In this document: one piece after another, positions 1-62,399 of the stretch
Position numbering within the stretch: position 1 is the stretch's first letter
Layout: each line of letters starts with the position of its first letter
From: Lingula anatina
Lineage: Eukaryota; Animalia; Brachiopoda
Direction: 5' to 3'
DNA length: 64,000 nt
NCBI GenBank assembly: GCA_051362555.1
Contig: CM120649.1
Location: 15,576,567-15,640,566, forward strand
Notes under the pieces: generated by a model
What the model was told of the DNA's origin: nothing
The model's database searches: none
Seen by the model: the letters and a program-made list of their open reading frames with translations, nothing else
Program-made: the position numbers and the translations under genes

Positions 1-3000
1 CCAGTTGATAAAACTTCTTCACGTGAAATCATGTGGGAAAGAAAATCAACCAGTCCCACGGGCAGTGAGTTAGAGACATTAGATGAAATGGCAGAATTGT
101 GTGGCCATAGCCCCCTTGCTTTAAAACTGCTAGCTGCATTACTTGATATGAAACCAACAGAAGCAGTTTTAGAGAAAATGAAGACTCAAAAGATATTATG
201 CACTCTTTCCATTCCCAGTATGCCAGACGAAATAAGATTTTGTTTTGATATTTCTTTTGAAACATTAGAACCCGAGACAAGAAAAGTGTTCCTTGCACTG
301 CATATATTCCCCGTTGCTTTTACTCTCAAAGAAGTCTCTGATATTTTAGGATTAGACCCAAATGATTGCGAACATGTCCTTGACAGCCTTGCCGACAAAT
401 CACTCATTAGTGCTGATAATTATATCTATGATATCCACCCCTTAGTTAGGGAATATGCAGAATTCAATGCCCAGAATTCTGACATTGACATTTTTGAAAT
501 TCAACGTGCCTATTGCAGTTATTATATAAAAGCTTTCAAAGTGCTTAAATTCAAAGATGTTGGTGCTTCAAAGACAAACATTTTGTCACATATAAAACAT
601 ACTGCTGCCTTACTTATCAAACATTTAGAAACCCAAGAGGTTTCTGAAAAACTTGAAACTACAGACAAATTAACAGGGATTGCAAACGCACTCTGTGAAT
701 TTTATCTATATAAAGATGCTCTAAACATAAGCAAGGTGGTGGCAAATGAAAGGGAGGTACTGCAAGGTCCCAAACACCCTGAAACTGCCTCTTTCTACAA
801 CAATATTGGCTGGGTACTGCAGGCTATGGGTGAGTATAAAGAGGCACTTGATTATCATAATAAAAGCCTGGCAATGCAAGAGGAGACACTTGGTCCCAAA
901 CACGCTGATACTGCCGACTCTTACGGCAATATTGGCGGCATACTATGGAAAATGGGTGAGTATAAAAAGGCGCTTGATTATCTCAAAAAATGTCTTGCAG
1001 TGAGAGAGGAGATACTCGGTCCCAAACACCCTGATACTGCCTCCACATACAACAATTTTGGAATTGTCCTGAGTGACATGGGTGAGTATCAAGCAGCGCT
1101 TGATTATCATAATAAATGTCTTGCAGTGAGAGAGGAGAAACTCGGTCCCAACCACCGTGATACTGTCTCCTCTTACAACAATATTGGAAATGTACTGCAA
1201 CCCATGGGTGAGTACAAAAAGGCACTTGATTGTTACAATAAATGTCTTGAAGTGAGAGAGAAGATGCTGGGCCCCAACCACCCTGATACTGCCGACTTCT
1301 ACAACAATATTGGTAGTGTGCTGCAAGACATGGGTGAGTATAAAAAGGCACTTGGTTTTTACAATAAATGTACTGCAGTGAGAGAGCAGTTCCTCGGCCC
1401 CAACCACCCTAATACCCTCGACTGCTACAACAATATGGGTAATGTACTGGCACACATGGGTGAGTATAAAAAGGCGCTTGATTCTTACAATAAATGTCTT
1501 GAAGGGAGAGAGAAGATGCTTGGCCCCAACCACCCCGCTACTGCGAACTCCTACAATAACATCGGTAGTGTACTGTCACGCATGGGTGAGTATACAAAGG
1601 CACTTAGTTTTTACAATAAATGTCTTGAAGTGAGAGAGCAGTTGCTCGGCCCCAACCACCCTAATACCCTCGACTGCTACAACAATATTGGCAATGTACT
1701 GGCACGCATGGGTGAGTATAAAAAGGCGCTTGATTATCACACAAAGTGTCTTGAAGTGAAAGAGGAGATACTGGGTCATAACCACCCTGCTACTGCCATC
1801 TGTTACAACAATATTGGTAGTGTCCTACAGGATATGGGTGAGTATAAAGAGGCACTTGACTCTTACAATAAATGTCTTGCAATAGAAGAAAAGATACTCA
1901 GCCCCAACCACCCTGATACCGCCACCTGCTACAACAATATTGGTGGTGTACTGCAGGCCATGGGTGAGTATAAAAAGGCGTTTGATTATTACCATAAATG
2001 TCTTTTAGTGAGAGAGGAGATATTTGGTACCAACCACCCTGATACTGCCTCCTCCTACAACAACATTGGGTTTGTGTACATAGTCATGGGTGAGTTTAAG
2101 GAGGCACTTGATTATTACAATAAATGCCTTGCAGTGAGAGAGGAGACACTGGGTACCAACCACCCTGGTACTGTCTCCTCCTACAACAACATTGGTAGTG
2201 TATTGCAGGGCCTGGGTGAGTTTAAAAAGGCTCTCGACTATTACAATAAATGCCTTGCAGTTAGAGAGAAGATTCTTGGTCCTAACCATCCTGATACCGC
2301 CTCCTCCTACAACAACATTGGTGGTGTACTGCAGGACCTGGGTGAGTTTAAAAAGGCACTTGAGGATTACAATAAATGCCTTACAGTTAGAGAGGAGATA
2401 CTTGGTCCCAACCACCCTGATACTGCCACCTGCTACAACAACATTGGTGGTGTACTGCAGGCCATGGGTAATTATCAAGAAGCGCTTGATTTTCATAATA
2501 AATGTCGTGCAGTTAGAGAGGAAAAACTCGGTCCCAACCACCGTGATACTGTTTCCTCTTACAACAATATTGGAAATGTACTGCAACTAATGGGTGAGTA
2601 CAAAAAGGCACTTGATTGTTACAATAAATGTCTTGAAGTGAGAGAGAAGATGCTTGGCCCCAACCATCCTGATACTGCCACCTCCTACAATAATATTGGT
2701 AGTGTGCTGCAAGACATGGGTGAGTATAAAAAGGCACTTGGTTTTTACAATAAATGTACTGCAGTGAGAGAGCAGTTCCTCGGCCCCAACCACCCTGATA
2801 CCCTCGACTGCTACAACAATATGGGTAATGTACTGGCACACATGGGTGAGTATAAAAAGGCGCTTGATTCTTACAATAAATGTCTTGAAGTGAGAGAGAA
2901 GATGCTTGGCCCCAACCACCCTGCTACTGCCACCTCCTACAATAATATCGGTAGTGTAATGTCACGCATGGGTGAGTATAAAAAGGCTCTTGGTTTTTAC

Positions 3001-4659
3001 AATAAATGTACTGCAGTGAGAGAGCAGTTGCTCGGCCCCAACCACCCTAATACCCTCGACTGCTACAACAATATTGGCAATGTACTGGCACGCATGGGTG
3101 AGTATAAAAAGGCGCTTGATTATCACAAAAAATGTCTTGCATTGAGAGAGGAGATGCTTGGCCCCAACCACCCCGCTACTGCCAACTCCTACAATAACAT
3201 CGGTAGTGTATTGCAGGACCTGGGTGAGTTTAAAGAGGCTCTCGACTATTACAATAAATGCCTTGCAGTGAAAGAGAAGATATTCGGCCCTAACCACCCT
3301 GATACTGCTACCTCCAACAGCAACATTGGTAGTGTACTGCAGGTCATGGGTGAGTATCAAGCAGCGCTTGATTATCATAAAAAATGTGTTGAAGTGAGAG
3401 AGGAGATACTCGGCCCCAGCCAACCGGATACTGCCAACTCCTACAGCAATATCGGATCTGTGCACAAAGCAATGGGTGAGTATCAAAAGGCACTTGACTA
3501 TTACAATAAATGCCTTGCAGCGAGAAAGGAGATACTGGGTCCCAACCACCCTGATACTGTCACCTGCTACAACGATATTGGTGGGGTACTATTGGAAATG
3601 GGTGAGTATAAAGAGGCGCTTGATTATCACAGTAAATGTCTTGCAATGAGAGAGGAGATACTCAGCCCCAACCACCCTGATACTATTAACTCTTACAACA
3701 TTATTTTCAATGTACTGATAGTAATGGGTGAGTATAAAAGGGCACTTGAATATATCAATAAATGCCTTTCAGTGAGAAAGGAGAAACTTGGTCCCAGCCA
3801 CCCTGACATTGCCTGCTCCTATCACAAAATTGGTGAGGTACTGCAATCAAAAGGTGAGTGTAAAGATGCGCGCGATTATTACAGTAAATGTCTTGAAGTG
3901 AGAGAGGAGATACTTGGTCCCAAACACCCTGATACTGCCAACTCCTACTTCAGTATTGGTGGGGTACTATTGGAAATGGGTGAGTATAAAGAGGCGCTTG
4001 ATTATCACAGTAAATGTCTTGCAATGAGAGAGGAGATACTCGGCCCCAACCACCCTGATACTATTAACTCTTACAACATTATTTCCAATGTACTGATAGT
4101 CATGGGTGAGCATAGAAGGGCAGTTGAATATATCAATAAATGCCTTTCAGTGAGAAAGGAGAAACTTGGTCCCAGCCACCCTGACATTGCCTGCTCCTAT
4201 CACAAAATTGGTGAGGTACTGCAATCAATAGGTGAGTATAAAGAGGCGCTTGATTATTACAGTAAATGTCTTGAAGTGAGAGAGGAGATATTTGGTCCCA
4301 ACCACCCTGATACTGCCAGTTCCTACTTCAGTATTGGTGGAGTTCTGCTATTCATGAATGAGTATAAAAAGGCGTTTAATAATTTCAAAAAATGCCGTGC
4401 AGTGAGAGAGGAGATACTTGGTCCCAACCACCCTGATACTGCCATCACAGTCCATATTTGTGATGTTGTATCTAAGCAAGTAAAAGTGCCATGGTGCACA
4501 ATAGTTAATTCATTGAAGCAGTCATATATATTCATATGCAGGTTGTTTTCCTCTCTCATACCCTTTGCCCAGGCAGACAGTTCCCTTATGTTTGTCTTCA
4601 TTGCCTCTCTGTTATCCATACTTTGTTGTACTCTTTACATTTACTCATCTCAATCCTAG
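1..4659 (+). CDS. STAND/NB-ARC-TPR receptor, copy A (5'-partial: end of NB-ARC/winged helix, 29 regular TPRs plus 1 degenerate, hydrophobic C-terminal tail)
   Basis: Frame is open from base 1 (PVDKTSSREIMWERK, matching paralogs B and C). GLPLA-like CGHSPLAL and MHD-like YDIHPLVREY motifs are present. MGEY-type motif recurs every 126 bp from 826 to 4354. The C-terminus reads SSLMFVFIASLLSILCCTLYIY. Walker A/B and the HEPN exon would lie upstream of the window. Confidence 0.92.
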   Translation, partial: PVDKTSSREIMWERKSTSPTGSELETLDEMAELCGHSPLALKLLAALLDMKPTEAVLEKMKTQKILCTLSIPSMPDEIRFCFDISFETLEPETRKVFLALHIFPVAFTLKEVSDILGLDPNDCEHVLDSLADKSLISADNYIYDIHPLVREYAEFNAQNSDIDIFEIQRAYCSYYIKAFKVLKFKDVGASKTNILSHIKHTAALLIKHLETQEVSEKLETTDKLTGIANALCEFYLYKDALNISKVVANEREVLQGPKHPETASFYNNIGWVLQAMGEYKEALDYHNKSLAMQEETLGPKHADTADSYGNIGGILWKMGEYKKALDYLKKCLAVREEILGPKHPDTASTYNNFGIVLSDMGEYQAALDYHNKCLAVREEKLGPNHRDTVSSYNNIGNVLQPMGEYKKALDCYNKCLEVREKMLGPNHPDTADFYNNIGSVLQDMGEYKKALGFYNKCTAVREQFLGPNHPNTLDCYNNMGNVLAHMGEYKKALDSYNKCLEGREKMLGPNHPATANSYNNIGSVLSRMGEYTKALSFYNKCLEVREQLLGPNHPNTLDCYNNIGNVLARMGEYKKALDYHTKCLEVKEEILGHNHPATAICYNNIGSVLQDMGEYKEALDSYNKCLAIEEKILSPNHPDTATCYNNIGGVLQAMGEYKKAFDYYHKCLLVREEIFGTNHPDTASSYNNIGFVYIVMGEFKEALDYYNKCLAVREETLGTNHPGTVSSYNNIGSVLQGLGEFKKALDYYNKCLAVREKILGPNHPDTASSYNNIGGVLQDLGEFKKALEDYNKCLTVREEILGPNHPDTATCYNNIGGVLQAMGNYQEALDFHNKCRAVREEKLGPNHRDTVSSYNNIGNVLQLMGEYKKALDCYNKCLEVREKMLGPNHPDTATSYNNIGSVLQDMGEYKKALGFYNKCTAVREQFLGPNHPDTLDCYNNMGNVLAHMGEYKKALDSYNKCLEVREKMLGPNHPATATSYNNIGSVMSRMGEYKKALGFYNKCTAVREQLLGPNHPNTLDCYNNIGNVLARMGEYKKALDYHKKCLALREEMLGPNHPATANSYNNIGSVLQDLGEFKEALDYYNKCLAVKEKIFGPNHPDTATSNSNIGSVLQVMGEYQAALDYHKKCVEVREEILGPSQPDTANSYSNIGSVHKAMGEYQKALDYYNKCLAARKEILGPNHPDTVTCYNDIGGVLLEMGEYKEALDYHSKCLAMREEILSPNHPDTINSYNIIFNVLIVMGEYKRALEYINKCLSVRKEKLGPSHPDIACSYHKIGEVLQSKGECKDARDYYSKCLEVREEILGPKHPDTANSYFSIGGVLLEMGEYKEALDYHSKCLAMREEILGPNHPDTINSYNIISNVLIVMGEHRRAVEYINKCLSVRKEKLGPSHPDIACSYHKIGEVLQSIGEYKEALDYYSKCLEVREEIFGPNHPDTASSYFSIGGVLLFMNEYKKAFNNFKKCRAVREEILGPNHPDTAITVHICDVVSKQVKVPWCTIVNSLKQSYIFICRLFSSLIPFAQADSSLMFVFIASLLSILCCTLYIYSSQS
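775..4443 (+). repeat. Coding tandem array of 126-bp TPR units (copy A)
   Basis: Exact 126-bp phase, consensus HPDTAxxYNNIGxVLxxMGEYKKALDYYNKCLAVREEILGPN. Higher-order duplications occur at offsets 1386 bp (~1135-1750 vs ~2521-3136) and 378 bp (~3577-3954 vs ~3955-4332). Confidence 0.95.
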
Positions 4660-11925: not shown

Positions 11926-12570
11926 GGTGGATCAGTCGTTACATGTTCCAACCTTCGAATTAAAAAAAAAAATTTTTTTTTGAAGAGACACCCAAGTACA
12001 TAAAAAATTTGCAAAAAGATTGGGGGCACCGACCAAATAAGAGAACTAGGCCCAAATATGATACACCCTGCATATCGCACTAGTCCCCATTCAAATCAAT
12101 GGGAAAATGGGTGTTTTTTCACTAAAGCTTTCTTTTTTATGACTTTCTGACATTTGAAATTTTTTTAAAAAATTTTTGTGTAAAGAGGCCTCCAAGTACA
12201 TTTAAATTTTGCCAAAAAAAAAAAAAAAAATTGGGGGTCACCGTCCAAATAAGAGAACTACGCCAACTTGAGGTGAGTCACACCCTGCGTGACGCACTAG
12301 TCCCCTTTCAAATCAATGGGCAAATGGTGTTTTTCACCAGAACGTGATTTTTTATTATTTTTCTAACGTTTGAATTTAAAAAAAAACTTTTTGTGTAAAG
12401 AGGCATCCAAGTAGATTTAAATTTTGCCAAAAAAATTGGGGGTCACCGACCAAATAAGAGATTACGCCAAGTTGAAGTGCGTTACACCCTGTGTGACGCA
12501 CTAGTCCCCATTCAAATCAATGGGCAAATGGATGTTTTTGCACTAAATCGTTTTCTTTTTATTATTTTTA

Positions 12571-13544: not shown

Positions 13545-13760
13545 TTAATCGTCTTTCGTCCTCCGTTTCAATTGCTAATTTGCTTTGGGTCATTATCTTG
13601 CATAAATCTATATTTTATGGGGCATTTTATCCCCAATGAGTGGGACCAAAAGCAAAAACTCCACAAATAATTCTGCGTCGAAATGGTACAATTCACAGTG
13701 TGTTTGCAATGCATGTTAAGTTGTCTATAGTTTCAAGTTTTTAAAAAACCTCTTGGTTTT

Positions 13761-15777
13761 CTAAATGTTTGTAAGTAAGGAAGCAGTATGTTTTATTCGT
13801 GATAAAATAGTTGTTTTTGAAGTACCATCATTAAGCATTTTGAAAGCGTTTCTATAATAACTACAATAGGCCTGTTGGATAACTAAAATATCACTGTCAA
13901 AATTCTGGACATTGTATTCTGCATATTCCCTAACTAAAGGATGGATATCATATACGTCATTACCTGCACTAATGAGAGATTTGTTGGCAAGGCTGTCTAG
14001 AATATGTTCACAAGCTTTTTGGTCTAACCCCAAAATAGCAGAGACTTCTTTGAGAGTAAATGCAAAGGGAAATATATGCAGTGCAAGGAACACTTTTCTT
14101 GCCTCGGGTTCTAATGTTTCATAAGAAATATCAAAGCAAGTACTTATTTCTTTTGGCATACTGGGAACGGATATCTTTTCGGTTTGCATTTTCTTTAACA
14201 CTGCTTCTGTTGGATTGTTAGCAAGTAATGCAGCTAGCAATTTTAAAGCTAGGGGGCTATGGCCACACAATTCTGCCATTTCATCTAATGCCTTTAACTC
14301 ACTGTCCGTGGGACTGGTTGATTTTCTTTCCCACATGATTTCACGTGATGAGGTTTTATCAACTGGAGGGATATCTAACATAACTATGTAATGTGTTGTG
14401 AAATCAAACTTTTCACGACTGGTACATAACAAAGTGATATGACGTGTTGAATCCATTACACCCTTCAAAAATTCAATAAACTCTCTTCTATTTGAACTGA
14501 TAATGGGGTCGTTATTATCGAGGATAAGTAATGTGTCTGTAGTCAAACCAGACAAAATCTGCTTGAATATGTTTTTATAATCAGAGTATAAATCTTTCAA
14601 ATTTCGTGATGGGTGATAGTGTTGGACAATTGATAACTTGACAGAGTTAAGATCTGTAACTTTACTCATATCAATGAACAACACATTTTGCATGTTTTGC
14701 CCGATCTTAACTGCTATGCTGGATTTACCGATACCCCCCATCCCGGTCAGGAGAACAAGTGGAACCTTATCACTTATATGTTTCTGTATCTTGGTTATGA
14801 TGCTATCACGTCCCTTCAGCTCTGTGTTCATTCCTGGTAACTCAGTGGGCAGCAGCTGGCAAGGAGTTTCTGAAAAGTACACTGAATATTCTTATTACAT
14901 TTAAAACCTTGGGACAACCATATTAAACTTTTAAATATACTACTCGGTTGTCAGTGATATTGTAACATTAGGGTGTTATACATGTATATAAGAATATAGA
15001 ATTGATATAACTGTAATTGTTTATCCTTGTGCTTTTATAAAATTGGCTCATTTTTTATTTATGTGTCCATTTATTTATGTCTATGTGTGCAGTTGTGTGT
15101 GTGTGTGTGTTTGTGATTGTGCGTGCGAGTGCACACATTTGTATTTGTTTTTTAGCTCTGGTTGCATAGATCTAAAATATTAAGTATTTGGGCAGAAATT
15201 CACCTGAAGCTTCCAGTGGCTGAATCAGCATCATGTCGTAGTAATCGCTAGTATATAATGGCGACAGAGACAGCAGGATATCTCTCAGATCAGTGAACTG
15301 GCTCTGGAAGTCTGCGTCTGAGAGACCCTCTATTCCATGAGCGTTTTTATTGCGGTACGCCTTCACCCTGCCGACGTTGGCCTCAGTTGATTTGTCCGTT
15401 GCTGGAGGATTGCTCCATCTTGCACGAGGATTCAGGTTTGTGATATTTCTTAATAAAACTACGGTCAGAGTAATATCTAAGTCCTGCAGTTGCACAGGAG
15501 GGGCGGGGCTCCCAGGAGGGTAGAGAATTTTCATTTGACTTAGGGTCAAAACTTTCTTCCCTTGTAAGCTGTGCAAGTTTTGTTTCACTGTTTGGTCATT
15601 TAGGACACCAGATATGTCGCCATTACTTGACGGTCCAAACAGAGCCGGGTATCGTGACTGTAACTGGTTACTGAGAACATCTCCAAGTACGTCATTTGCC
15701 AGGCCCAGTAAAAGCTGCATGCGAAAATTATTTTCTTTCTTCTTTATTGCAGTAACCGAGCTAGCCATTTGTGCCAT
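13761..15777 (-). CDS. HEPN-NB-ARC paralog, copy B, truncated before the TPRs (join 15777..15204, 14869..13761; ~560 aa). May be a pseudogene.
   Basis: Acceptor ttgcag|ATG at 15777. Phase-1 GT-AG intron 15203..14870 gives in-frame LEAS-E-TPCQLL. HEPN motifs DLDITLTVVLLRN and YRNKNAH, Walker A GMGGIGKS, Walker B LLILDN, TSRE, CGHSPLAL and IHPL are all present. A 1-bp deletion (gtttg-taag vs gtttgataag in copy C) causes the stop at 13761. Residual homology ends at ~13690. Confidence 0.8.
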
Positions 15778-16334
15778 CTGCAAAAATGACATAGTGGTGT
15801 AAAAGGTTCATCAGGACATTTTCTTTTAAGCTAAGATAAAAACAAAATAGATCGGTATGACAGTTTCATTATGATTTAGTTGTTTTTGTCCCATAATCAA
15901 ATTAAGTACCAGTCTCTTAGTTCAAGAATTTGGTGAAAAAACTCTGAGTTGTGCATTTTTACCTATAAGCATGGAATTTGGCACAGTTGTAGATAATGGA
16001 ATTCTAAGCCATTCGGGATATATGGGCATGTCTGAAAATTCCAATATGGACACCAATTCCGATATGGCCACCACAAATACACTTTTAAATAAAAAATCTA
16101 ATATATAGTCCTAGTTCAGCATTACCCAAACTTTCCAATCAATTACACCATTTATGAATACCGTTCTAGTATGTACAATTTATCTATCCTTTTCTGCGCG
16201 GTCACTGTAACCTTGGACATCTCTTATTATGTCCAAGTTATAACTACAGACCTGTAGCCATTACCTCCATTAATTGTTATTGGTGCTTGAGGAATATGTT
16301 CTGTAATACGTGAATCAAAATTACCAACGTACTA

Positions 16335-16504
16335 CTCTCTACCAGGGCGACTGATAGAATTTTACAGATATTCACAGATATGCCTCTAGCTAGATAGATG
16401 GTCATTTTGGGCTGAAAATGACTTCAGCCCAAAATGACCATATTTCTAGCTAGAGACATATCTGTGAATACCTGCAAAAATCTATCTGTCGCCCTGGTAG
16501 AGGG
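16335..16504. mobile_element. Fold-back MITE (Tc1/mariner-like, TA flanks)
   Basis: ~80-bp inverted arms (ctctctaccagggcgac...ggtcattttgggctgaa / ttcagcccaaaatgacc...gtcgccctggtagaggg) around a ~6-nt loop, with TA on both sides. Confidence 0.75.
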
Positions 16505-17164
16505 TACCAACGCACTTCGACCCTTTTCAAGTTGCATATCATAAAAAGAGGTCTACTGAGATTGCTGTTGCTATCATTTTACATAATGATGTTACTTTTT
16601 TTTGGATCGAAAAATCCCTTATTATGCACGAACACTCCTTTTTGGGTATTGAGAAACAAACCCGCTTTTTCACTTTTTGCTTATTGATTATAGCTTGTCG
16701 TTTGAACTGCACAAACAACTTTTTAGTCCTCTCCTCTCAATTTTAATACACCACTCAGTGACTGGACTTGAAAATTTTGAGTCAACCGCATCCAACGAGT
16801 CATAGATGGCAATAACTTTTATAAGACCATAGACATAAATACTGGCACGCCTCAGGGCTGCGTCATTTCACCTCTATTGTATTCACTGTTTACATTGTGT
16901 TGCTTCGTATCTCGATTGTTTGATTGTTAAAGGTCACCCAGGGTCACCCAAAGTCACCCAGCGAATATGCCTATGTCACCAAGTCGACTACAGTCAACTT
17001 CCACACGTATTAAAATAGCTTTATCCATCAGCAGCACGTATTTTTAATAAGAGAAATGGCTTTTTATAGATTATTTTATTGTATTTTATTTCATCGACAT
17101 ATAATATTAATTTTCATTTTATACTTCTATGCATAAATATGACAATAAATATCAAATAATATTA

Positions 17165-17637
17165 TTAAAGTTGTTTGTCAGTGCGCTCAAGCAACAGGAC
17201 GTACATGTAGTGCTTTTGAAAGTGAAAGAGGAAGGGCTTTTTGAAGAAGAAAAATGCGGAAAAATCTAGCAAACAACACGTTACGTCATAATTTAAGTAA
17301 ATATAAGCAATTTAATATATCAATTTAATGTATCAAATCTAATATATCAGAAATCGTCTACACCTAACATTTGTAAGTGAACTTACCGTAAAGTGACTTC
17401 TTGCTAATATATTTGCGTCGAGCCGCCCACTTTTTTTGACCAACTTTTCCAGGTGATGTGCTTCACTTTCTTTGCGTTATGGTTTGTCTATAGGTTCAAG
17501 TAATAAATCCTGAAAACAGCGTCTTTGAGATGAATATTTAACTCCATTTTTCGGCTAAAAAGACTCGTGGATCTACGTGTGTACTCTGTCTCTGAGTCAG
17601 AGTGTGCAAAAAAAAATGAAAAGGGGTCACATGACAA
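17165..17637 (-). promoter_or_regulatory. Putative promoter, non-coding exon 1 and start of intron 1 of copy B
   Basis: Homologous to ~29965-30420 upstream of copy C. Minus-strand donor acg|gtaagt at ~17386. GTCATGTGAC motif at ~17626-17635. GAAAGTGAAA at 17218-17227. Confidence 0.6.
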
Positions 17638-17656
17638 GATCTTATCTGTACTAGCT

Positions 17657-17750
17657 TGGCTCCCCTGATGAGTCCGCATCGACGAAACACAAAAGTTGAG
17701 CAAACGGCAGGAAAACTGCCGACAGTTCTTTTTTTGTGTCGGGAGTACCA
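17657..17750 (+). ncRNA. Type I hammerhead ribozyme
   Basis: Stem I CUCCC(17660-64)/GGGAG(17741-45), extended by UGG/CCA across a UA bulge. Core CUGAUGA (17665-71). Stem II GUC-cgcauc-GAC. GAAA (17684-87). Stem III CACAAAA/UUUUGUG with an inserted CGGCAG-gaaaa-CUGCCG hairpin. Cleavage triplet GUC at 17738-40. Confidence 0.88.
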
Positions 17751-17899
17751 CTATAGAGTTGTCAGATGCAAGTCCATTGTTATGATAAAATCTTGGCTGT
17801 AGCATAGGTGCATAGGTTGATCACCATTTTAAATAGAGCCAAAGTGCAAACACTACATGATAATATTTTCATGATATGTTTGTTTTGGAGATGTATTAA

Positions 17900-18712
17900 C
17901 TTTATATATTAATCATTAACTTATCCCATGTGCATACTGGTTCATATATCAGGTCCTTCGCGTGGTATATTATCACCTGTGCGTCACAGCTCTTGAAAGA
18001 GTAAATAGTCCAAAGACGTGTGTCAACATAACATGCCACAACAGCCGAATTTAAACTGTATTCTCAATCAAGCCAGTTTCGTGCCATCTGGGTTAAAGAG
18101 GAAGAGAAGTTAAATGAGAGATATCTATGATGGAAGAGATAACTGAACTGGTTTGAAAATCCATTTGCGTTCCGCTCCATGATTTCAATTAACCGCACGT
18201 GGAAGTTTGGATCGGATACGAACACTTATTTTGAAGGTCAAACCAGTGTATCTATCTCTTCTCCCACATTCAAGCATCGTCGATGGTGCAAGAAAAACCC
18301 ATTATTTAACCCTTTTTTGCACCTTACTCGGGGATTTCAATTAGAAAGACAACCGACTTGGAACCTAAGTTGATTTGGTGAGACAATTTGCTAATGACTG
18401 ACGACACAAATATTCAAATTAAAGGTATAATGTCAACAGCAAGATGAAAACTTCCGATGACATAAAATTTAATTGAACGTTATTTTCACCTACATGTAAT
18501 TTTATCATGATTCAGCATTTTGTAAAATACTGATATTAATCATTTACCAAATACAGGTGCGCGTGCGTTTGCTCAAAGTTTATTAGCTGGTAAACTGGTC
18601 GCTCATCTCTCACGTTTATCATCCGCTAGTGGCCTTTTCATTCATTTCCATAAATATAAACGTATCAGTTAAGACACACAGTTATAAATAAGGTGTCAGC
18701 AGACATGATTAG
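17900..18712 (+). repeat. ~0.8-kb diverged dispersed repeat, inverted copy at ~38860-39670
   Basis: Colinear matches include cattcaagcatcgtcgatggtgca (~18267 vs reverse complement ~39305-39328) and ccataaatataaacgtatcagttaaga (~18648 vs reverse complement ~38898-38924). Confidence 0.8.
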
Positions 18713-21700
18713 GCACCGTGTATCAGGTATGTTGACAACCTATGCACCAAGCTCGTCATTATTTTATTATCCAAAGTGATCGTGGCATAAAACCAAAGAA
18801 CCCCAAAATAGAAAAAGAAAACAAAATACAAAACAAGGCAGAAGACGGGGGGAAGGAGGTGAGAGGACTTACTGAATGACTCCCCTTTTAATAAATCCTT
18901 TGTGTTAAAGAACATACTTTTAAAAAATCAATGTATCAAAGTAAGACAAAAATATACGATTGATTAGACTAATACTAGAATACCATGTGTTGTAAGTGTT
19001 ATGCCCGGAGGAATTAACCCTTTACTTTAATTGTGCATCATTTTTATTAACATTGCAATAAGTGGTAGAAATCACGGCAAAATATCCGAGGCAGACAACG
19101 AAAAACCTTAATTCACAATTTTGAATTTCTAACAAAATTGAATTGCATGGGCGAGAAAAAGAAACCTTTGGCAAAATATCAAAGTTCGCCAAACAGCGCA
19201 TCGGTGGTGGCACATGAAGATGAAGATGTGACATAGGTGTGGAGTTACAATCAATTGGCACGTTGTGGCATCTAGACGTGTGGTCTTTGCATTACTATAA
19301 AGGTGTATACGATTACTTTAGTGAAAAGTGCCCTTACTTTAATTATTATACGCAAGTATATTGGTCACAGAGGAAAGAAATTTGTGAAAGGTGAAATACG
19401 CTGTCAAATATTGGACAAAACTAAAGATACAAGTAAGTTTATTTTACATCTCTTGGACAATCATTGGATACCTTGTACATTTCTCCAAGTACATAATTTC
19501 ATATAGATATTCATATTAATTGTATGAAATCCATTCATTATTCTTAGCGTTCATTTCTCCAAGTGAATATTTTCATATAAAAATATTCAATTTTTAATTG
19601 TATTAAATCCATTTTTGCGTCTTTAGCAATGTTTATGTAATACACAAGCTGTAACCATGGATTCCATTGTGGTGAAGAAAATCAACCAATGATATATATA
19701 GTTACATCTGAATTGTTCCAAATATGCAATACTAACTGCCCCGGAAATTAGTATTTCTTTCTCTAATTTGATGATCTACGCCATCGACAACTATCAAATA
19801 CCCGTATGCAAGCACTTGTAGACTTAAAAAACTATTGTCACTACAATCATCTAGGAATAAAGCTATGGCCCATATTTTAAACAACATTTACTACGCTTTC
19901 TATGAGCAAACAACTTTTCAACTATCAAATTTCCATCAAAACCAATAGCAATACAATAGAGTATTCCAAGGCCTTATTTCCTTTTGTCTTTAGTTTCATT
20001 GTCAGATATCTAGATCCTGCAATAATGGTTAGATAATACCCAAACAAATGTTTATTTACCAAAGGAAATTCAAGTGTATTGTCTGTGTCAAAAATACATT
20101 CTGATTTGGCTTCTATGTATGGATCTCACACGCTGTCCTATACTTATTTTCAGTACAGCAGCATTTATGTAGCGTTAACCTTATGACTATCAAACATCTG
20201 GTATGTCAAATATTATTTCTATATTGGCAAACTAGCAACAATATCGGGCAAGTGAGAGAACAGTTTCATTAGCTCTGTAGCCTATGTATCAATTCAAATT
20301 ATTCTTTTTCTTTTTATCAAGAGCTCTTGATAAAAAGAAAAACGATAGTTTGAATAGCGGGCAAGCACTCAAGTACATGTATTGAAAAGTGCCACTATGA
20401 AATAAGTGTACAATTGGTATTCAAAATGACAGCAATATTAGTTAACCTAGAACTTAATTTCCGATAAAAAGGACAATGATATTTTTGAAATATACAGATA
20501 TTTCACCAAACAGATTCCATCTACGTTAAATATCACACTGGCAATATGTAGAATCTGTTTAGACGCCCAAACTATTGGGTTATCCTGGCAGCGTGTACAA
20601 GACAATATACTAAATCAGTCACTGGCTTCACTTCAGCTCAAAAAGAACTTAATTACAAGAACATAAGGTTGATAAGAGAGAAACTGCTCGTCATCACAGT
20701 TCACACACACAACTTAAAACCATCCACAAATCTCAGGGTGGTAAAAATAAGTTAACACTGGTGTGCAATTCATTTAAAAGAAAGAAAACCTGAATACGCA
20801 AATTCAAAATAACAGAAATAAGACAAAGCTCCTCTTAACACATAATTAATTCTTTAAAAAAATACTGCAAACAATTTACTCTCATGATAACTGACTTTTT
20901 TCTTTTAAAAATGAACCTTGCACTGCACAGTAGTTGCTACGGCAATCCAGCATACTGTTATGGTGATTTATCAGGAAAATAAGGGCTTGAAGCTATTAAG
21001 CATCAGGTTTCATGGGACATTGGTCCTAAGAAATGATATTACTGGGTTAACCAATCTTTATCTTCTACTCCCCAGGAGGTGTGTGTGTGTAGGGGGGGGG
21101 GAGCTAGGGCGGGGGGGGGGACCTGAATGATCCAGCACATAGGCGTGGTGACAGGTGGTAAAGCCGATCAGAGCCCCCAATTTTTGCTGGTAAATATCAG
21201 TTAATTTTATCTACAGCAATTGGCAAATGAAACTTCAATGGTCTTTGGGTTATGCTTGTATTGGATTATGACAGCCTTGATGTAGTTAAAGCAGGGGCGG
21301 ATTTAGGCAATAAAGATAATTTGGAAGCCTGTCAGAATATAAAATGGATAATAAGTGCCTGTATGTGACTTAGCTACAATGCAGAACTCACATTGAGTCC
21401 TAGAACTGAGGGAAGTATATGTAAAGAGCACAACACGGTGATTGGATAACAGAGAGGCGAAGGAAGACAAATATGAAGGAACAATGTGTCTGGATGAAGG
21501 GCGTGAGAGAAAAAAAACACGTTAATCGATTGCTTCGATGAAGAGAATGTTCCCACAGTGTACTGGTAGTTTGCACTCTTAAAAACTTCCAAGACAATTA
21601 ATTAAGAAAATACATTTGGCTAGAAAGACTGGAGAAGAATATTGTGATGATTAAAGAGGAGTAAATAATACACTCCATTCCATGTAACACCCTTTACTAT

Positions 21701-21916
21701 CACATTATCAACGACTCCTTGTCTGTGTCACTATGGGAGCTCTACCAGAGATAGTCTTACTTAAACAATGGCTGGTAAAGGTAAACAGCACCGTAAGTAA
21801 TGCCTGTATGCGCCAGTCTCATTGAAATACAAACAGACTGGTGTTGGAAATAAAGGGATTTATAAAAAGTTGTTAACCATTTGAGACATGGGTGAAATGC
21901 ATGACCCAATAAGCTG

Positions 21917-24900
21917 CTAAATAATTGTACACCATAGCCATCTGACTAAATCAAGATGGTACATTTTGGATAAACGATCTAAAAGTTTAATTGTTCTCAC
22001 AGTATCAGGGTGGTTGGGACCAAGTATCTCCTCTCTCACTGCAAGACATTTATTGTGATAATCAAGTGCCTCTTTATACTCACTCATGGCCTGTAACACG
22101 TTACCGATATTGTTGTAGGAGGCGGCGGTATAAAGGTGGTTGGGGCCGAGTATCTCCTCATTCACTGCAAGGCATTTATGGAAATAATCAAGTGCCTCTT
22201 TGTACTCACCCATGGCCTGTAGTACAATGCCAATATTGTTGTAGCAACCAGCAGTATCAGGGTGTTTGGCGCCAAGTATCTCCTCTCGCACTGCAAGACA
22301 TTTTTTGTAATAATCAAGTGCCTTTTTGTACTCACCCATGGCCTGCAACACATTACCGATATTGTTGTAGGAGGCAGCGGTCTCAAGGTGGTTGAGACTA
22401 AGTATCTCCTCTCGCACTGCAAGACATTTATTGTAATAATCAAAGGCTGCTTCATACTCACCCATGGCCTGAAGCACACTTCCAATATTGTTGTAGGATG
22501 CGGCAGTATCAGGGTGTTTGTGGCCAAGTGTCTCCTCTCTCACTGCAAGGCATTTATTGTGATAACCAAGTGCCTCTTTATGCTCACCCATGGCCTGCAA
22601 CACATTACCAATATTTTTGTAGGTGTCGGCGGTATCAGGGTGTTTGGGGCCAAGTATCTTCTCTTCCACTGCAAGACTCTTTTTGTAATAATCAAGTGCC
22701 TTTTTATACTCATCCATGGCGTGCAACACATTACCAATATTGTTGTAGACTTTGCCAGTACTAAGGTGGTTGGGACCAAGTATCTCCTCTCTTACTGCAA
22801 GGCATTTATGGTAATAATCAAGTGCCTTTTTATACTCACCCATGGCCTGTAACACATTACCAATATTGTTGTAGACTTTGCCAGTACTAGGGTGGTTGGG
22901 ACCAAGTATCTCCTCTCTCACTACAAGGCATTTATTGTGATAATCAAGTGCCTCTTTATACTCACTCATGGCCTGTAACACGTTACCGATATTGTTGTAG
23001 GAGGCGGTGGTATCAAGGTGGTTGGGGCCGAGTATCTCCTCATTCACTGCAAGGCATTTATGGAAATAATCAAGTGCCTCTTTGTACTCACCCATGGCCT
23101 GTAGTACAATGCCAATATTGTTGTAGCAATCAGCAGTATCAGGGTGTTTGGCGCCAAGTATCTCCTCTCTCACTGTAAGACATTTACTGTGATAATCAAA
23201 GGCTGCTTTATACTCACCCATGTCCCGCAACACACTACCGATATTGTTGTAGCAGGCAACAGTATCAGGATGGTTGGGACCGAGTATCTCCTTTCTCACT
23301 GCAAGACATTTATTGTAATAATAAAGTGCCTCTTTATACTCACCAATGGCCCGCAGTAAAATGCCGATATTGTTGAAGGAGGCAGCAGTATTAGGGTGTT
23401 TGGGGCCAAGTATCTCCTCTCTCACTGCAAGACATTTTTTGTGATATTCAAATGCCTTTTTATACTCACCCATGGCCTGCAACACATTACCAATATTGTT
23501 GTAGGAGGCGTCAATATCAGGGTGTTTGGGACCAAGTATCTTCTCTCCCACTGCAAGACATTTTTTGTAATAATCAAGTGCCTTTTTATACTCACCCATG
23601 GCGTGCAACACACTACCAATATTGTTGTAGCAACCAGCAGTACCAGGGTGGTTGGGACCAAGTATCTCCTCTCTCACTGCAAGACATTTTTTGTGGTAAT
23701 CAAATGCCTTTTTATACTCACCCATGGCCTTCAACGCATTACCAATATTGCTGTAGGATACGGCAGTATCAGGGTGGTTAAGACCGAGTAACTCCTCTCT
23801 CACAGAAAGACTTTTATTGTAATAATCTAGTGCCTCTTTATACTCACCCATGCCACTCCGTATAAGTCCAATATTGTTGTAGGAAGCGGCAGTTTCAGGG
23901 TGGTTGTGGCCGAGTATCTCCTCTCGCACTGCAAGACATTTATTGTAATAATCAAGTGCCTCTTTATACTCACCCATGGCCTGTAGTACCCCGCCGATAT
24001 TGTTGTAGGAGTCGGCAGTATTACGGTGGTTCGGGCCTAGCACCTCCTCTCGCACTTTAAGACATTTATTGTAATAATCAAGTGCCTTTTTATACTCACC
24101 CATATGTAGTAGTTCACAACCAATATTGTTGTAGGAGGATGCAGTATCAGGATGGCTGGGGCCGAGTATCTTCAGTTTCACTGCAAGACATTTTTGGGAA
24201 ATATCCAGTGCATTTTGATACTCACCTAAATCACACATTACTAAACCAATACCATCGTAGGAGTTTGCAGTATCAGGGTGGTTGGGACCGAGGATCTCCT
24301 CTCTCACTGCAAGACATTTATTGTAATAATCAAGTGCCTCTTTATACTCACCGATGGCCTGCAGTAAAATACCGATATTGTTGTAGGAGGAGGCAGTATG
24401 ACGGTGGTTCGGGCCTAGCATCTCCTCTTTCACTGCTAGACATTTAACGTGATAATCAAATGCCCTTTTATACTCACCCATGGCCTGCAGTACATTGCCG
24501 ATATTGTTGTAGCAGCTCGCAGTATCGGGGTGGTTGGGACCGAGTATTTGCTCTTGCAGAGCAAGGCTTTTTTTGTAATGATAAAGAGCCTTTTTATACT
24601 CACCTATATTTAGAAGTACAGTGCCAACATTGCCGTGGAAGGTGGCAGCAAAAGGGTGTATGGGACCGAGTGTCTCTTCTTGTATTGCAAGACTTCTATT
24701 GAGATAATCAAGCGCTTTTTTATACTCACCCATGGCCTGCAACATAGTGCCAACATTGTTGTAGCAGCTGGCAGTATCAGGGTGTTTGGGACCGAGCACC
24801 TCCTCTGCCAATGCAAGACATTTTTTGTAATAATCAAGTGCCTCTTTATACTCACCCATAGCCTGCAGTACCCTGCCAATATTGTTGTAGGAGGAGACAG

Positions 24901-27016
24901 TTTCATAGTGTAGTACCTCCTTTTCATGTGCCACCACCTTGTAAATGTGTAAAGCATCCTTATAGAGGTAAACTTCACAGAGTGCGTTTGCAATCCCTGT
25001 TAAATTTTCTATAGTTTCAAGTTTTTCAGAATCCTGTTGGATTTCTAAATGTTTGATAAGTAAGGCAGCAGTATGTTTTATATGTGATAAAACATTTTTT
25101 ATTTTAAGCATTTTGAAAGCTTTTATATAATAACTGCAATAGGCACGTTGAATTTCAAAAATGTCATTGTCAGAATTCTGGGCATTGCATTCTGCATATT
25201 CCCTTACTAAAGGGTGGATATCATAGATATCATTATCTGCACTGATGAGTGATTTGTTGGCAAAGCTGTCTAGGAAATGTTCACAATCATTTGGGTCTAA
25301 TCCTAAAATATCAGAGACTTCTTTGAGAGTAAATGCAACGGGAAAAATATGCAGTGCAAGGAACAATTTTCTCGCCTCAGGTTCTAATGTTTCATAAGAA
25401 ATATCAAAGCAAGTGGTTATTCCCTTTGACATACTGGGAATGGAAAGAGTGCGTAATATTTTTTTAGTCTTCATTTTCCCTAACACCCTTTCTGTAGATT
25501 TATTAGCAAGTAATGCAGCTAGCAATTTTAAAGCTAGGGGGTTATGGCCACACATTTCTGCCATTTCATCTAATGCCTTTAACTCAATGTCCGTGGGACT
25601 GGTTGATTTTCTCTCCCACATGATTTCACGTGATGAGGTTTTATCAACTGCAGGAATGTCTAACACAACTATGTTATGTGTTGTGAAATCAAACTTTTCA
25701 CGACTGGTACATAACAAAGTGATATGGTGTGTTGAATCCATTACACCCTTCAAAAAGTCAATAAACTCCTTTCTATTTGAACTGATAATAGAGTCGTTAT
25801 TATCGAGGATAAGCAATGTATCTGTAGTCAAACCAGACAAAATCTGTTTGAATACGTTTTCATAATCAGAGTATAAATCTTTCAAAGGGCGTGTTGGGTG
25901 ATAGTGTTGGACAAGTGATAACTTGACAGATTTAAGATCTGAAACTTGCCTCATATCAATGTACAACACATTTTGCATGTTTTGCCCGATCTTAACTGCT
26001 ATGCTGGTCTTACCAATACCCCCCATACCGGTCAGGAGAACGAGTTGTTTTTCTTCGATATGTTGGTGTATTTTGGTAATGATGTCATCACGCCCCTTCA
26101 GTTCTGTGTTCATTCCTGGTAACGCAGTGGACAGCAGCTGGCAAGGGGTTTCTGAAAAGTACACTGAACATTTTTATCGCATTTTTAACCTAGGGGCACC
26201 GATACATAATTTTTTCCTGAAAATATACAACTCGGCTGTCAATAACATTGTGAGATTAGAGTGTTACATGTATTTATATTTTGAATGAGTATTACTGAAA
26301 TTATTTATGCTTGTGCTTTTATAAATGTGACTTAATACTTTGATTTAATGAATCATCTGTGTGTCAATTTGTTTGTGGTTATCTGTGTGTGTGCACGCAC
26401 CTATATTAGTATTTCCATTAACTGTGGCTGTATTGATGTTAAGTATTAAATATATGAGCATAAATTCACCTGAAGCATCTAATGGTTGAATCAGCAACTT
26501 ATCGTAGTCATCGCTTGTATACAATGTCGACAGAGACAGCAGAGGAGCTTTTAGATTAGTGAACTGGCTCTGGAAGTCTGCGTCTGAGAGTCCATCTGTT
26601 TCATGAGCGTTTTTATTGCGGTACTCCTTCACCCTGCCGATGTTGGCCTCAGTTGATGTGTCCGTTGCTGGAGGATTGTCCCATTTTGCATGAGGATTCA
26701 GGTGGGTGATATGTCTTAATAAAACCACGGTCAGGGTAATATCCAAGTCCTGCAGTTTGACAGGAGGGTAGAGAATTTTCATTTGAGTACGGTTCAAAAC
26801 TTTCTTCACTTTTAAGCTGTGCAAGTTACATTTCACTGTTTGGTCATTTAGGACACCAGATATATCGCCATTACATGATGGTCCAAACAGCCCCGGGTAC
26901 CGTGACTGTAACTGGTTATTGAGAACATCTCGAAGTACGTCGTTTGCAAGATACAGTAAAAGTTGCATACGGAAATGGTTTTCTTGCTTCTTTCGTGTAG
27001 TCTCCGAGCCAGCCAT
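21917..27016 (-). CDS. Complete HEPN-NB-ARC-TPR receptor, copy C (join 27016..26470, 26151..21917; ~1593 aa, 23 regular TPRs plus 1 degenerate)
   Basis: Acceptor ttgcag at 27026 and ATG at 27016. Phase-1 GT-AG intron 26469..26152 is in frame (LDAS-E-TPC). HEPN DLDITLTVVLLRH and YRNKNAH, Walker A GMGGIGKT, Walker B LLILDN, CGHNPLAL and IHPL are present. MGEY-type motif recurs every 126 bp from 24859 to 22087. Confidence 0.92.
22000..24905 (-). repeat. Coding tandem array of 126-bp TPR units (copy C)
   Basis: 126-bp phase with a block duplication at offset 882 bp (ggtgtttggcgccaag at 22261 and 23143). STGKVYNNIGNVL appears in two adjacent units. Confidence 0.95.
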
Positions 27017-28266: not shown

Positions 28267-29964
28267 GAAACTTATTAACTGTCGAGCATAATTGAGTGTA
28301 TATTTTGTGATTTCCACACATTTGTTCCAATATCATATAGCCTACATCATATTTTAATAATAAAATTGGTTTTTCAAACAGGGTCAGTGAGTTAGGGACT
28401 GTTCAGAACCAGCTGATCCGCAGACTAACTGGTCCACGGAACAAATATGGCGCGACCCACTTGAAAGCAAGCCCAGGTTTTATTGCTCTGTCCCTGCAGG
28501 GGCGGCTTGCATGGGAAACGGGGAATCCGTTAGGGTTTATGCACCATGCTTTCAAGTGTGCACCATCCTTAAACTAGTCTGTGGATCAAGTTTTTTTTGA
28601 AGAGGGCCTTCGAAAAAAACTTTACATGCTTCAACTAATTCCAAACCTAACACTTCCACTCAAGAACTTAGCAATGGAGCTTACCAGTAAAGCCTCCCAG
28701 TCACAAGAACTTCACTGTAATGTGCTGCCACCGAGCGGTTAACAAAGCACTAAAATGCAGCCGAGGTGACTGCATGCAAAACTGCCCCCAGACAGTAAAA
28801 TATCACCTTCAAATAGAAAAGTGAAGGAAAATAAACAAATAATTTCTCAAATAATTTTCACACAATCTGAAAAAAAAAGAGTTTCTCTTGTTTGCAAATA
28901 TTATGGCTTCAAAATTAACAAATAAGACACTTTAAATTGGCACATTAAATAAGATTGGGGTCCTGTAGGCCTTTGTGGCTCTAGATAAAAACTTTTTCTC
29001 GACAAAAATTACTGGCCCGGGAGTGCGCTGCTGCTTTATGCTCAAATCAAGTACATGCAACTAATATGCTGTGGTGCTTTACAAACTGTGTAAATATAGC
29101 GCATTATAAAGCAATACCAATCAATACACAGACAATCAATACACAGACGTGAAATTGAACTTAAAGTTAAAGGGGAACTCTATGGAATTTTCCCACCAAA
29201 ATGAATTTTCCCGGGGAAATAAGCAATTTTCTCGTACTCACTTATCATTTATCTATCCTCCTCGGCTTTAAACATTAAAAGGAATGTGTCAGGGACCATA
29301 GTATTTAAAAGTTTGTTATTAATATTTTTAAATTTTCATACATGATGTGGTATTAATTCAATCAGTAGAAGTCTTTCTTTGGTAAAATTCACACATGGGC
29401 AGCTAAGAATTTAAAAACTTTAGATCATATTTCACGCCAAGCAGTTCAAATTTTAATGTCTTTTGTTGCAAGCTAGTACTCAATTAGATCTTACGAAATT
29501 ATTGGGAGGACACACCACGAGGGGGCAGTCTTGTGTTTGTATTGACCAAACGGTTTATGATCTTTCTGATCGAAATTTTTAAATATTGATACAGCCAAGA
29601 AAAAAGACCTGTGAACTTAAATCTTGAGAGGAAAGAGGTCAGGATTGAAGCTTGGGTTTCACCATGCTTGTATCATGTAACTCTTGGTATAGTTAAATAT
29701 ATTTTGTTGAAATAAAAACATGGAACCGTTTCATTATTTTCCGTGTGCAGAGTTTAAGGTATAAGACATGCAACTAGCAACTTTACAGATCGCGTTATCT
29801 GATGATGAGGGCCTGTAGTGCCCAAGTCTTACGGTTTTATTATAAAGGGTTATATTCAATGTGTAGTGTGGGATCCAAGGTGGTAATGAAAAGGAGACTT
29901 ACGTAAATAATTCAGGACCCTACTATTGAAAAAGGCGCATTGCAATGCAGACGTGACCTTGACC

Positions 29965-62173: not shown

Positions 62174-62399
62174 CTGTAAATACAAATAAAGAATTTTGAT
62201 GAAAACACACCAGTTTATGTTTACTAATATAAAAGCCCATTTTTAAAACATTTCAAATGTTCTTTTCATGCATTATAGGCCTACTGTTTTCAAAAGCCAA
62301 TCCAGACAATCTTATATTTTCTCTTTTAACAAAAAAGAATGAATTATCCATTAACTCTTAACCATCGTTAAAAGTATGCTTTCATTGCCTTGATTATGT

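What the first reader, a model, noticed from the sequence alone, without database searches (positions are those of the whole stretch)
13761..27016. Animal NLR-like receptors with an intact HEPN RNase effector: HEPN - NB-ARC - TPR array
Seen: the ORF track splits these genes, but an in-frame phase-1 intron joins a ~185-aa exon to the NB-ARC exon in copies B and C. That exon has DLDITL..LLR and R-N-K-N-A-H (Rx4H) in both copies, and Walker A/B are intact. Established: Rx4-6H is the HEPN RNase active-site signature, HEPN domains act as dimers, and STAND ATPases oligomerise when their repeat sensor binds ligand. Nuclease-STAND-TPR is also the layout of bacterial Avs defence proteins. DZIP3-type HEPN fusions to STAND domains are known in invertebrate genomes, so the architecture itself may not be new. 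Inference: this cluster is a ligand-gated RNase immune or cell-death system in which TPR binding drives oligomerisation and HEPN activation.
Basis: partly seen in the sequence, partly recalled or inferred. Interest (0 to 1): 0.85.

Follow-up and report, generated by a model that had tools for sequence, protein, structure and literature searches.

The report
Brachiopod immune receptors with RNase-like heads
A cluster of three related genes, probably from a Lingula lamp shell, includes one complete spliced gene for a likely immune receptor whose fast-changing repeat tail is predicted to sense intruders and switch on a predicted RNA-cutting head; the same layout is already catalogued in corals, and the second copy named in the finding has lost its sensor tail.

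Summary
Real, but a known layout, and only one of the two named copies is complete. Copy C (27016-21917, minus strand) encodes 1593 aa: DZIP3-type HEPN (Pfam E 2e-32, RNKNAH), NB-ARC and 23 TPR units of 42 aa. Its 318-nt phase-1 intron is skipped by 9 RNA reads from a 90-99% alike allele or paralogue. Copy B keeps HEPN and NB-ARC but has a frameshift, no TPR array, no 5'UTR exon and no junction reads. Copy A (plus strand, 1-4659) runs off the window. All 13 longer relatives of the HEPN exon are Lingula anatina proteins, 10 of them with this layout. HEPN/NB-ARC/TPR genes are tabulated for corals (PMC10236652), and this scan noted the layout four times before on other DNA. Added here: (1) amino-acid change in the repeats concentrates at four known TPR ligand-contact positions (omega 2.2-3; weaker with site-specific synonymous rates); (2) the repeats show block duplications like fungal NLRs; (3) a 95% identical HEPN exon sits on both NB-ARC-TPR and Roc-COR gene models. 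Likely mechanism: ligand binding, oligomerisation, HEPN pairing, RNA cleavage. All of it is inferred; no functional test turned up in the papers searched.

The parts
28685..28710 (-). 3' end of the non-coding first exon of copy C (GT donor at 28684; its 5' start was not located); spliced to the acceptor AG at 27027-27026
   Evidence: 13 loose read ends at 27026 in X7; their consensus matches 28686-28710 once in the window, with 3 mismatches; an in-frame stop lies 13 codons before the ATG
26470..27016 (-). Copy C, HEPN coding exon (182 codons plus 1 base), DZIP3/hRUL138-like HEPN
   Evidence: Pfam PF18738 E 2.2e-32; AlphaFold2 pLDDT 94.6; best fold match Csm6 HEPN, Z 7.4
26603..26620 (-). Copy C Rx4H motif R133-N-K-N-A-H138
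   Evidence: Sequence; R and H both kept in 107 of 114 aligned HEPN rows
26152..26469 (-). Copy C phase-1 GT-AG intron, 318 nt
   Evidence: 9 junction reads and zero intron depth in X7
24989..26151 (-). Copy C NB-ARC (AP-ATPase) module: Walker A GMGGIGKT at 26029-26006, Walker B LLILDNND at 25816-25793, sensor-1 CTSR, GxPLA, winged helix
   Evidence: Pfam NB-ARC E 8.8e-7; model pLDDT 91.7; Foldseek best hit Apaf-1, E 1.7e-12, TM 0.69
22025..24922 (-). Copy C TPR array: 23 units of 42 aa (the first is degenerate), followed by a capping helix up to the stop at 21917
   Evidence: Pfam TPR_10/TPR_12; units listed; C15-16 duplicated as C22-23 at 97-99% nucleotide identity
15204..15777 (-). Copy B HEPN exon (191 codons plus 1 base), RNKNAH at 15354-15337
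   Evidence: Pfam E 5.2e-31; 77% amino-acid identity to C; dN/dS against C 0.43
14870..15203 (-). Copy B predicted phase-1 GT-AG intron, 334 nt
   Evidence: no joint listed in 4 RNA runs
13685..14869 (-). Copy B NB-ARC exon; 1-nt gap near 13772, stop at 13761, homology ends at 13685; no TPR array
1..4659 (+). Copy A, an inverted paralogue open at the window edge: C-terminal half of NB-ARC plus 29 TPR units (763-4416); whether it has a HEPN exon cannot be seen
   Evidence: 5'-open ORF of 1552 aa; 81% identity to the NB-ARC of C; A04-08 repeated as A15-19 and A23-25 as A26-28 at 91-98%

Best explanation
Copy C is a complete, spliced gene for a three-part protein that is likely an intracellular immune receptor: its TPR tail is predicted to bind a foreign or altered protein, and its HEPN head would then cut RNA. 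Shown: the gene structure, the splice (in a 90-99% alike transcript), the three domains, the Rx4H and Walker motifs, purifying selection on HEPN and NB-ARC, and faster amino-acid change at TPR groove positions. Inferred from known STAND and HEPN biochemistry: (1) at rest the NB-ARC module holds ADP and is closed by the TPR tail; (2) ligand in the concave groove allows ATP exchange and ring formation; (3) the ring brings HEPN heads into the two-fold pair that forms one composite RNase site; (4) cleavage of host or invader RNA stops translation or kills the cell. The ligand and the RNA substrate are unknown. Copy A is probably a second receptor with another specificity. Copy B is most likely a recently broken duplicate.
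For: HEPN family match E 2e-32. R133 and H138 are kept in 107 of 114 aligned rows (the two window exons plus 112 of the 158 hit proteins then held, chosen mostly for short length). A looser R-[ND]-x2-5-H pattern is present in 150 of 172 HEPN domains cut from those 158 proteins. The fold search puts Csm6 first (Z 7.4, rmsd 3.5, 116 aligned), and at least 9 of the top 50 rows are HEPN-domain proteins. The NB-ARC model matches Apaf-1, NRC helpers and an archaeal STAND-TPR at E 1e-12 to 1e-10. dN/dS between paralogues is 0.37-0.43. Among 51 repeat units, 4 of 42 codon positions have omega above 1 at p <= 0.0005 in a shared-synonymous-rate model. They map to TPR positions 2, 9, 12 and 13, all among the six ligand-contact positions named in PMC1261162 (passages); the chance of 4 of 4 falling in 6 of 42 is 1.3e-4. 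The same signature is reported for fungal NB-ARC-TPR NLRs (PMC4986451, passages). The same HEPN family sits on a STAND-type ATPase in 31 of 48 long relatives scanned. HEPN activity needs a canonical dimer in RnlA (PMC8266594, passages).
Against: No activity, ligand or immune induction was measured. Fold support is modest: no VIA match reached Z 8, which that tool says may reflect a common helical arrangement. The selection signal weakens when each site has its own synonymous rate: groove class p 0.044, only position 10 of the four at p 0.018 uncorrected, and two non-groove positions score as well. An IQ-TREE codon model on the six most variable positions did not differ from omega 1 (lnL -663.99 against -664.18). 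Repeat exchange was not modelled and can inflate such tests. TPR groove positions are variable in TPR families generally. No RNA read matched C at 99% or better, and 3 of 4 runs had almost no reads. One close Lingula paralogue (P0001) has lost the catalytic His.
Confidence: 0.6

Rival explanations
1. The protein is an immune receptor, but its HEPN head binds RNA or a partner and signals without cutting RNA.
For: No activity of a DZIP3-type HEPN was seen in the passages read; PMC8662601 leaves 'RNA sensor or RNase' open. Fold similarity to proven RNases is only Z 5-7. Some relatives lack the motif: 7 of 114 rows and 22 of 172 domains.
Against: The R and H are conserved in 94% of rows, and in 194 of 202 pearl-oyster proteins (PMC9646362, passages). 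That is hard to explain without catalysis. HEPN sits in the effector position, and the variable surface is on the TPR tail.
Confidence: 0.2
2. The switch-and-RNase design is right, but the trigger is not a pathogen molecule. It is a polymorphic self protein (allorecognition or guard) or a stress signal, as in fungal heterokaryon incompatibility.
For: Repeat shuffling and groove diversification are the hallmark of fungal het-type NLRs (PMC4986451). No infection data were available here.
Against: No linked partner gene was seen among the window's ORFs of 100 aa or more. Lineage-specific expansion in filter-feeding marine invertebrates is usually read as pathogen-driven (PMC9646362, PMC10236652).
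Confidence: 0.12
3. Copy B is not debris but a functional sensor-less executor (HEPN-NB-ARC, 560 aa) that co-assembles with A or C, or dampens them.
For: B is open for 560 codons, keeps RNKNAH and both Walker motifs, and breaks right at the end of the ATPase module; dN/dS against C is about 0.4.
Against: B lacks any match to the first exon of C. Reads laid on B differ at many fixed sites, and no junction was listed. B carries more private amino-acid changes (syn/nonsyn 8/21, against 13/8 for A and 6/10 for C), though this is not significant (p 0.077).
Confidence: 0.12

Closest known systems
Coral DZIP3-like HEPN / NB-ARC / TPR proteins (orthogroup OG0000193; PMC10236652, Additional files 16-17)
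   Same: Identical three-part layout: 8 of the first 30 of 323 HEPN rows of file 17; tandem expansion.
   Different: Other phylum. The only named coral hit to the NB-ARC part was 24% identical (P0162), so orthology is not shown. No function was tested in the passages seen.
Lingula anatina RefSeq paralogues (LOC106178291, LOC106179188 and others; P0001-P0012, P0015)
   Same: 56-69% identity in HEPN, up to 70% in NB-ARC, the same exon-end sequence and the same layout; already joined as single gene models.
   Different: Uncharacterised models. The window copies form their own pair in the tree and have longer TPR arrays.
Bivalve and cnidarian HEPN-NACHT NLRs (PMC9646362, PMC8260672, PMC8662601)
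   Same: Same HEPN family with Rx4-6H in the N-terminal effector position; RNase role proposed.
   Different: NACHT with LRR or WD40 rather than NB-ARC with 42-aa TPR.
Fungal and brown-algal NB-ARC-TPR receptors with highly similar repeats (PMC4986451, PMC3341825)
   Same: TPR arrays on NB-ARC (42-aa units in the brown alga), repeat duplication, positive selection, mapped to the concave face in the fungal protein.
   Different: Other effector domains. Here the whole array is one exon (brown algae use one exon per repeat). Mean repeat identity is 77-79% at nucleotide level; the 85% amino-acid 'high internal conservation' cut-off of the fungal study was not applied here.
Bacterial Avs and bNACHT anti-phage STANDs (PMC13581612; bioRxiv 10.1101/2022.07.19.500537)
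   Same: Enzyme effector, STAND and TPR-like sensor in one chain; HEPN is listed among bacterial NACHT effectors.
   Different: This is an intron-containing animal gene. Avs3 ranks 46th in the fold search (TM 0.45) against Apaf-1 first (TM 0.69). Bacterial-type NB-ARC relatives are only 21-26% identical.

Membership tests
DZIP3/hRUL138-like HEPN (PF18738) | Profile match above the curated cut-off | tested here: met
   112.3 and 107.8 bits against a cut-off of 27
DZIP3/hRUL138-like HEPN (PF18738) | Rx4-6H motif at the end of the conserved helix | tested here: met
   RNKNAH in B and C; R133-H138 ends helix H122-137 in the model
HEPN RNase superfamily | HEPN helical fold | tested here: inconclusive
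   Best match Csm6 at Z 7.4; at least 9 of 50 rows are HEPN proteins, but none reaches Z 8
HEPN RNase superfamily | RNA cleavage by a composite site of two HEPN domains | not testable with these tools
   Needs biochemistry
NB-ARC / AP-ATPase STAND | Walker A, Walker B, sensor-1 Arg, GxP and winged helix in an Apaf-1-like fold | tested here: met
   Pfam NB-ARC above cut-off; G41, G46, K47, D116 and P204 invariant and R150 at least 90% conserved in 44 rows; Foldseek Apaf-1 E 1.7e-12
NB-ARC / AP-ATPase STAND | Ligand-induced, nucleotide-dependent oligomerisation | not testable with these tools
   Inferred from family knowledge
HEPN / NB-ARC / TPR NLR-like proteins (coral type) | All three parts in one spliced reading frame, copy C | tested here: met
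HEPN / NB-ARC / TPR NLR-like proteins (coral type) | All three parts in one reading frame, copy B | tested here: not met
   Frameshift, stop at 13761, no TPR
Canonical animal NLR (NACHT + LRR) | NACHT domain and LRR sensor | tested here: not met
   The ATPase scores as NB-ARC (no NACHT among the 13 families listed for B) and the sensor is TPR
Avs anti-phage STANDs | Prokaryotic gene that senses phage proteins | tested here: not met
   Spliceosomal introns and brachiopod paralogues
Avs anti-phage STANDs | ATPase falls in an Avs clade | tested here: inconclusive
   Avs3 is listed but far below Apaf-1 and NB-ARC structures; no tree with Avs sequences was built
Fungal-type diversifying-repeat NLRs | Positive selection on the concave face and repeat-level duplication | tested here: inconclusive
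   Block duplications are clear. Omega above 1 at TPR positions 2, 9, 12, 13 with a shared synonymous rate, borderline with site-specific rates; recombination not modelled

The most novel reading that the evidence does not exclude
Brachiopods run a fungal-style receptor factory with a direct enzymatic executioner. TPR arrays reshuffle by block duplication and diversify at the binding groove to track pathogen proteins. A one-exon HEPN RNase cassette is swapped between NB-ARC-TPR and Roc-COR switches and cuts RNA the moment the switch oligomerises. That would be an animal counterpart of Avs immunity that needs no caspase or transcription step.
Probability: 0.3. Interest if true: 0.72.

Novelty: new member of a known kind. 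Interest (0 to 1): 0.36.

Why it matters
HEPN-headed STAND receptors are among the commonest NLR-like genes in corals and bivalves (PMC8260672, PMC9646362, PMC10236652). I found no functional test of one in the papers searched (192 papers met the terms and 20 were listed). If they cut RNA on oligomerisation, invertebrate animals have single-chain sensor-executioner immunity like bacteria. Copy C is a clean test case: one 182-aa effector exon, one intron, and a sensor whose variable positions are mapped. The layout itself is not new.

Tried and rejected
No whole genome was held, so family size in this assembly and the 5' end of copy A were not examined. The run search listed no indexed RNA holder; 9 raw-read runs came by species label. 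PDB sequence searches with the HEPN exon (0 hits) and with its profile (13 hits, best E 0.43, unrelated) found no solved relative. Foldseek gave no HEPN match at E <= 0.001; this does not exclude the fold. Prediction of a HEPN homodimer returned no verdict (runs 0.43, 0.01, 0.01; median under the 0.32 mark; alignment not used) and is not used either way. An alternative in-frame acceptor at 26163 for C was set aside because reads join at 26151. An extra coding exon upstream of C was rejected because of an in-frame stop in the first exon; one search had that exon edge off by one base and its UTR translation was discarded. The degenerate unit C01 was left out of the selection tests (51 of 52 units used). 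The HEPN tree is the quick version, 57 rows, SH-aLRT only. Gerdol et al. 2018 on Lingula immunity is not held and may already describe these genes. Supplement files 13-17 of PMC10236652 were not searched, and a phrase search for a total count of HEPN/NB-ARC rows gave nothing. A sequence look-up in earlier findings was empty.
Full report
Observation. The window holds three related genes. Copy C lies on the minus strand. A 547-nt exon from the ATG at 27016 to 26470 joins through a 318-nt GT-AG phase-1 intron to a long exon, 26151-21917, giving 1593 aa without an internal stop. Pfam assigns HEPN_DZIP3 (E 2.2e-32), NB-ARC (E 8.8e-7) and TPR_10/TPR_12. In RNA run X7, 9 reads from 7 starts skip exactly 26152-26469, and intron depth is zero. 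Of 396 reads laid, 66 were 95-99% alike, 330 were 90-95% and none reached 99%, so the transcript is a diverged allele or close paralogue. The only displayed difference inside the RNKNAH codons is synonymous; 147 further rows were not shown. Runs X1, X2 and X4 gave 0, 1 and 4 reads. Thirteen loose read ends at 27026 point to a first exon ending at 28685; it carries an in-frame stop, so 27016 is the start codon.

Copy B has the same two-exon head (15777-15204, intron 334 nt, 14869 onward; HEPN E 5.2e-31, NB-ARC E 1.3e-8) but is not a full receptor. A 1-nt gap near 13772 leads to a stop at 13761, similarity to C ends at 13685, and no TPR sequence lies between 4443 and 21992. B has no match to the first exon of C. 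In four runs no joint was listed at 15204/14869. Reads on its coding part differ at many fixed sites, as paralogue reads would, and depth at the junction was too low for a firm negative. Copy A (plus strand, 1-4659) is a 5'-open ORF with half an NB-ARC and 29 TPR units. A and C lie tail to tail with homologous 3' flanks.

Origin and relatives. All 13 longer proteins found with the HEPN exon are Lingula anatina RefSeq models at 56-69% identity; 10 of 13 carry HEPN, the same ATPase and TPRs in one chain. The window is therefore most likely a Lingula genome (inference). A library-wide search found 527 proteins at E <= 0.001 and listed 150. Of 48 long relatives scanned, 31 carry a STAND-type ATPase (NACHT, NPHP3_N, nSTAND3, NB-ARC or AAA_16), 2 Roc-COR, 3 NHL with B-box or filamin, 1 an interferon-inducible GTPase and 1 a kinase with a Ribonuc_2-5A domain. 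So this HEPN is a mobile effector of immune-type switches. In L. anatina models, the HEPN region of a Roc-COR protein (P0005) is 185/194 identical to that of an NB-ARC-TPR protein (P0007). The similarity stops at the position of the window's exon end. This suggests recent exon shuffling, unless one model is mis-joined.

Effector. R133 and H138 are both kept in 107 of 114 aligned rows (112 of 158 hit proteins plus the two window exons). The model is confident (pLDDT 94.6). VIA-align ranks Csm6 first (Z 7.4, rmsd 3.5, 116 residues), with Cas13, AbiF, sacsin HEPN, HepS and three HEPN structures named in PMC3710099 among the top 50; none reaches Z 8. HEPN RNases need two motifs juxtaposed in a dimer (RnlA, PMC8266594, passages). 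RNase activity here is likely but not shown.

Switch. The model of the 387-aa ATPase region (pLDDT 91.7) matches Apaf-1 (E 1.7e-12, TM 0.69), NRC helpers, an archaeal STAND-TPR and CED-4; Avs3 is rank 46. The highest TM scores are mostly to resting-state structures. Walker A, the Walker B Asp, sensor-1 and GxP are conserved across 44 rows. Paralogue dN/dS is 0.43 for HEPN and 0.37-0.40 for NB-ARC.

Sensor. The 42-aa units average 79% (C) and 77% (A) nucleotide identity. For 43 of 51 units the best match lies in the same gene, and blocks are duplicated: C15-16 as C22-23, A04-08 as A15-19, A23-25 as A26-28. With one synonymous rate for all sites, unit positions 10, 17, 20 and 21 have omega 3.0, 2.2, 2.2 and 2.2 (p <= 0.0005 each, 42 sites tested), against 0.5 for the non-groove positions pooled. 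By my mapping onto the TPR consensus (offset 8, consensus recalled) these are TPR positions 2, 9, 12 and 13, which contact ligand in HOP (PMC1261162, passages). An independent ranking from 49 units of L. anatina paralogues put 10, 20, 17, 13, 39 and 21 on top. Against this: with site-specific synonymous rates the six groove positions give only p 0.044, position 10 gives p 0.018, and positions 4 and 33 outside the groove score similarly. An IQ-TREE codon model did not separate the top six from omega 1. Raising the synonymous scale by 1.5 leaves only position 10 significant. Recombination was not modelled. The signal is suggestive, not proven. It parallels fungal and brown-algal NB-ARC-TPR receptors (PMC4986451, PMC3341825; passages). 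The 8 papers listed by a search for this signature concern fungi or brown algae, and none of the 20 titles listed of 95 in a Lingula-directed search covers these genes.

Mechanism. Most likely (0.6): ligand binds the TPR groove, the NB-ARC module exchanges nucleotide and oligomerises, HEPN heads pair and cut RNA, and the cell arrests or dies. Every step after the anatomy is inferred. Rivals are a non-catalytic HEPN (0.2) and a self or stress trigger (0.12). B is probably a recently broken duplicate. It shows more private amino-acid changes than A or C, though not significantly (p 0.077); a role as a sensor-less executor is not excluded (0.12).

Prior knowledge. I read the papers below as passages found by term search, not as whole texts. 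PMC3710099 lists the DZIP3 family fused to TPR, NACHT, ankyrin, CARD, DEATH and LRR, with expansions in Nematostella and oyster. PMC10236652 notes many N-terminal DZIP3-like HEPN domains on coral NACHT/NB-ARC proteins, and its supplement lists the exact HEPN, NB-ARC, TPR order. PMC9646362 counts 194 of 202 intact motifs in pearl oyster. PMC8260672 reports anthozoan HEPN-NACHT expansions. PMC8662601 calls for functional tests. This scan has four earlier notes on the layout, one from another piece of this genome; they agree with the reading I had already stated and are not independent evidence.

Verdict. A real, spliced, new member of a known kind. Interest 0.36.

Noticed in passing
window 41769-43682 (-): Single 637-codon stop-to-stop ORF for an inhibitor-of-apoptosis protein: three BIR, a UBA-like region and a RING, with no intron interrupting the frame; an apoptosis regulator about 15 kb from the cluster.
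   Followed up: no
window 45680-46654 (+) and 49264-49977 (-): DDE_Tnp_4 transposase ORF and a Myb/SANT-like (MADF) ORF facing each other, the layout of a PIF/Harbinger transposon (element name recalled).
   Followed up: no
window 61160-62242 (-): Tyrosine recombinase ORF (Phage_integrase E 1e-5, just under the cut-off), probably from a DIRS- or Crypton-like element; strong negative GC skew from 60000 to the window end.
   Followed up: no
window 37222-37635 (+): Last exon of a Methyltransf_22-family gene (E 2.5e-7).
   Followed up: no
window 17165-17596 against 29965-30394: 68% identical segments upstream of B and upstream of the first exon of C, in the same orientation. B may once have been a longer duplicate that lost its first exon, or this is a repeat.
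   Followed up: partly
window 11946-12569, 16333-16506, 8555-8927: Imperfect palindromes, probably MITE-like elements; 16333-16506 draws many RNA reads with varied loose ends.
   Followed up: no
P0005 1-194 against P0007 1-194; P0013 against P0009: Near-identical HEPN regions end at the exon boundary and continue into Roc-COR, or into LRRs, instead of NB-ARC-TPR.
   Followed up: partly
P0030, P0016, P0023: This HEPN family is also fused to a kinase plus Ribonuc_2-5A domain, to an interferon-inducible GTPase, and (two copies) to a W2 translation-factor domain.
   Followed up: no
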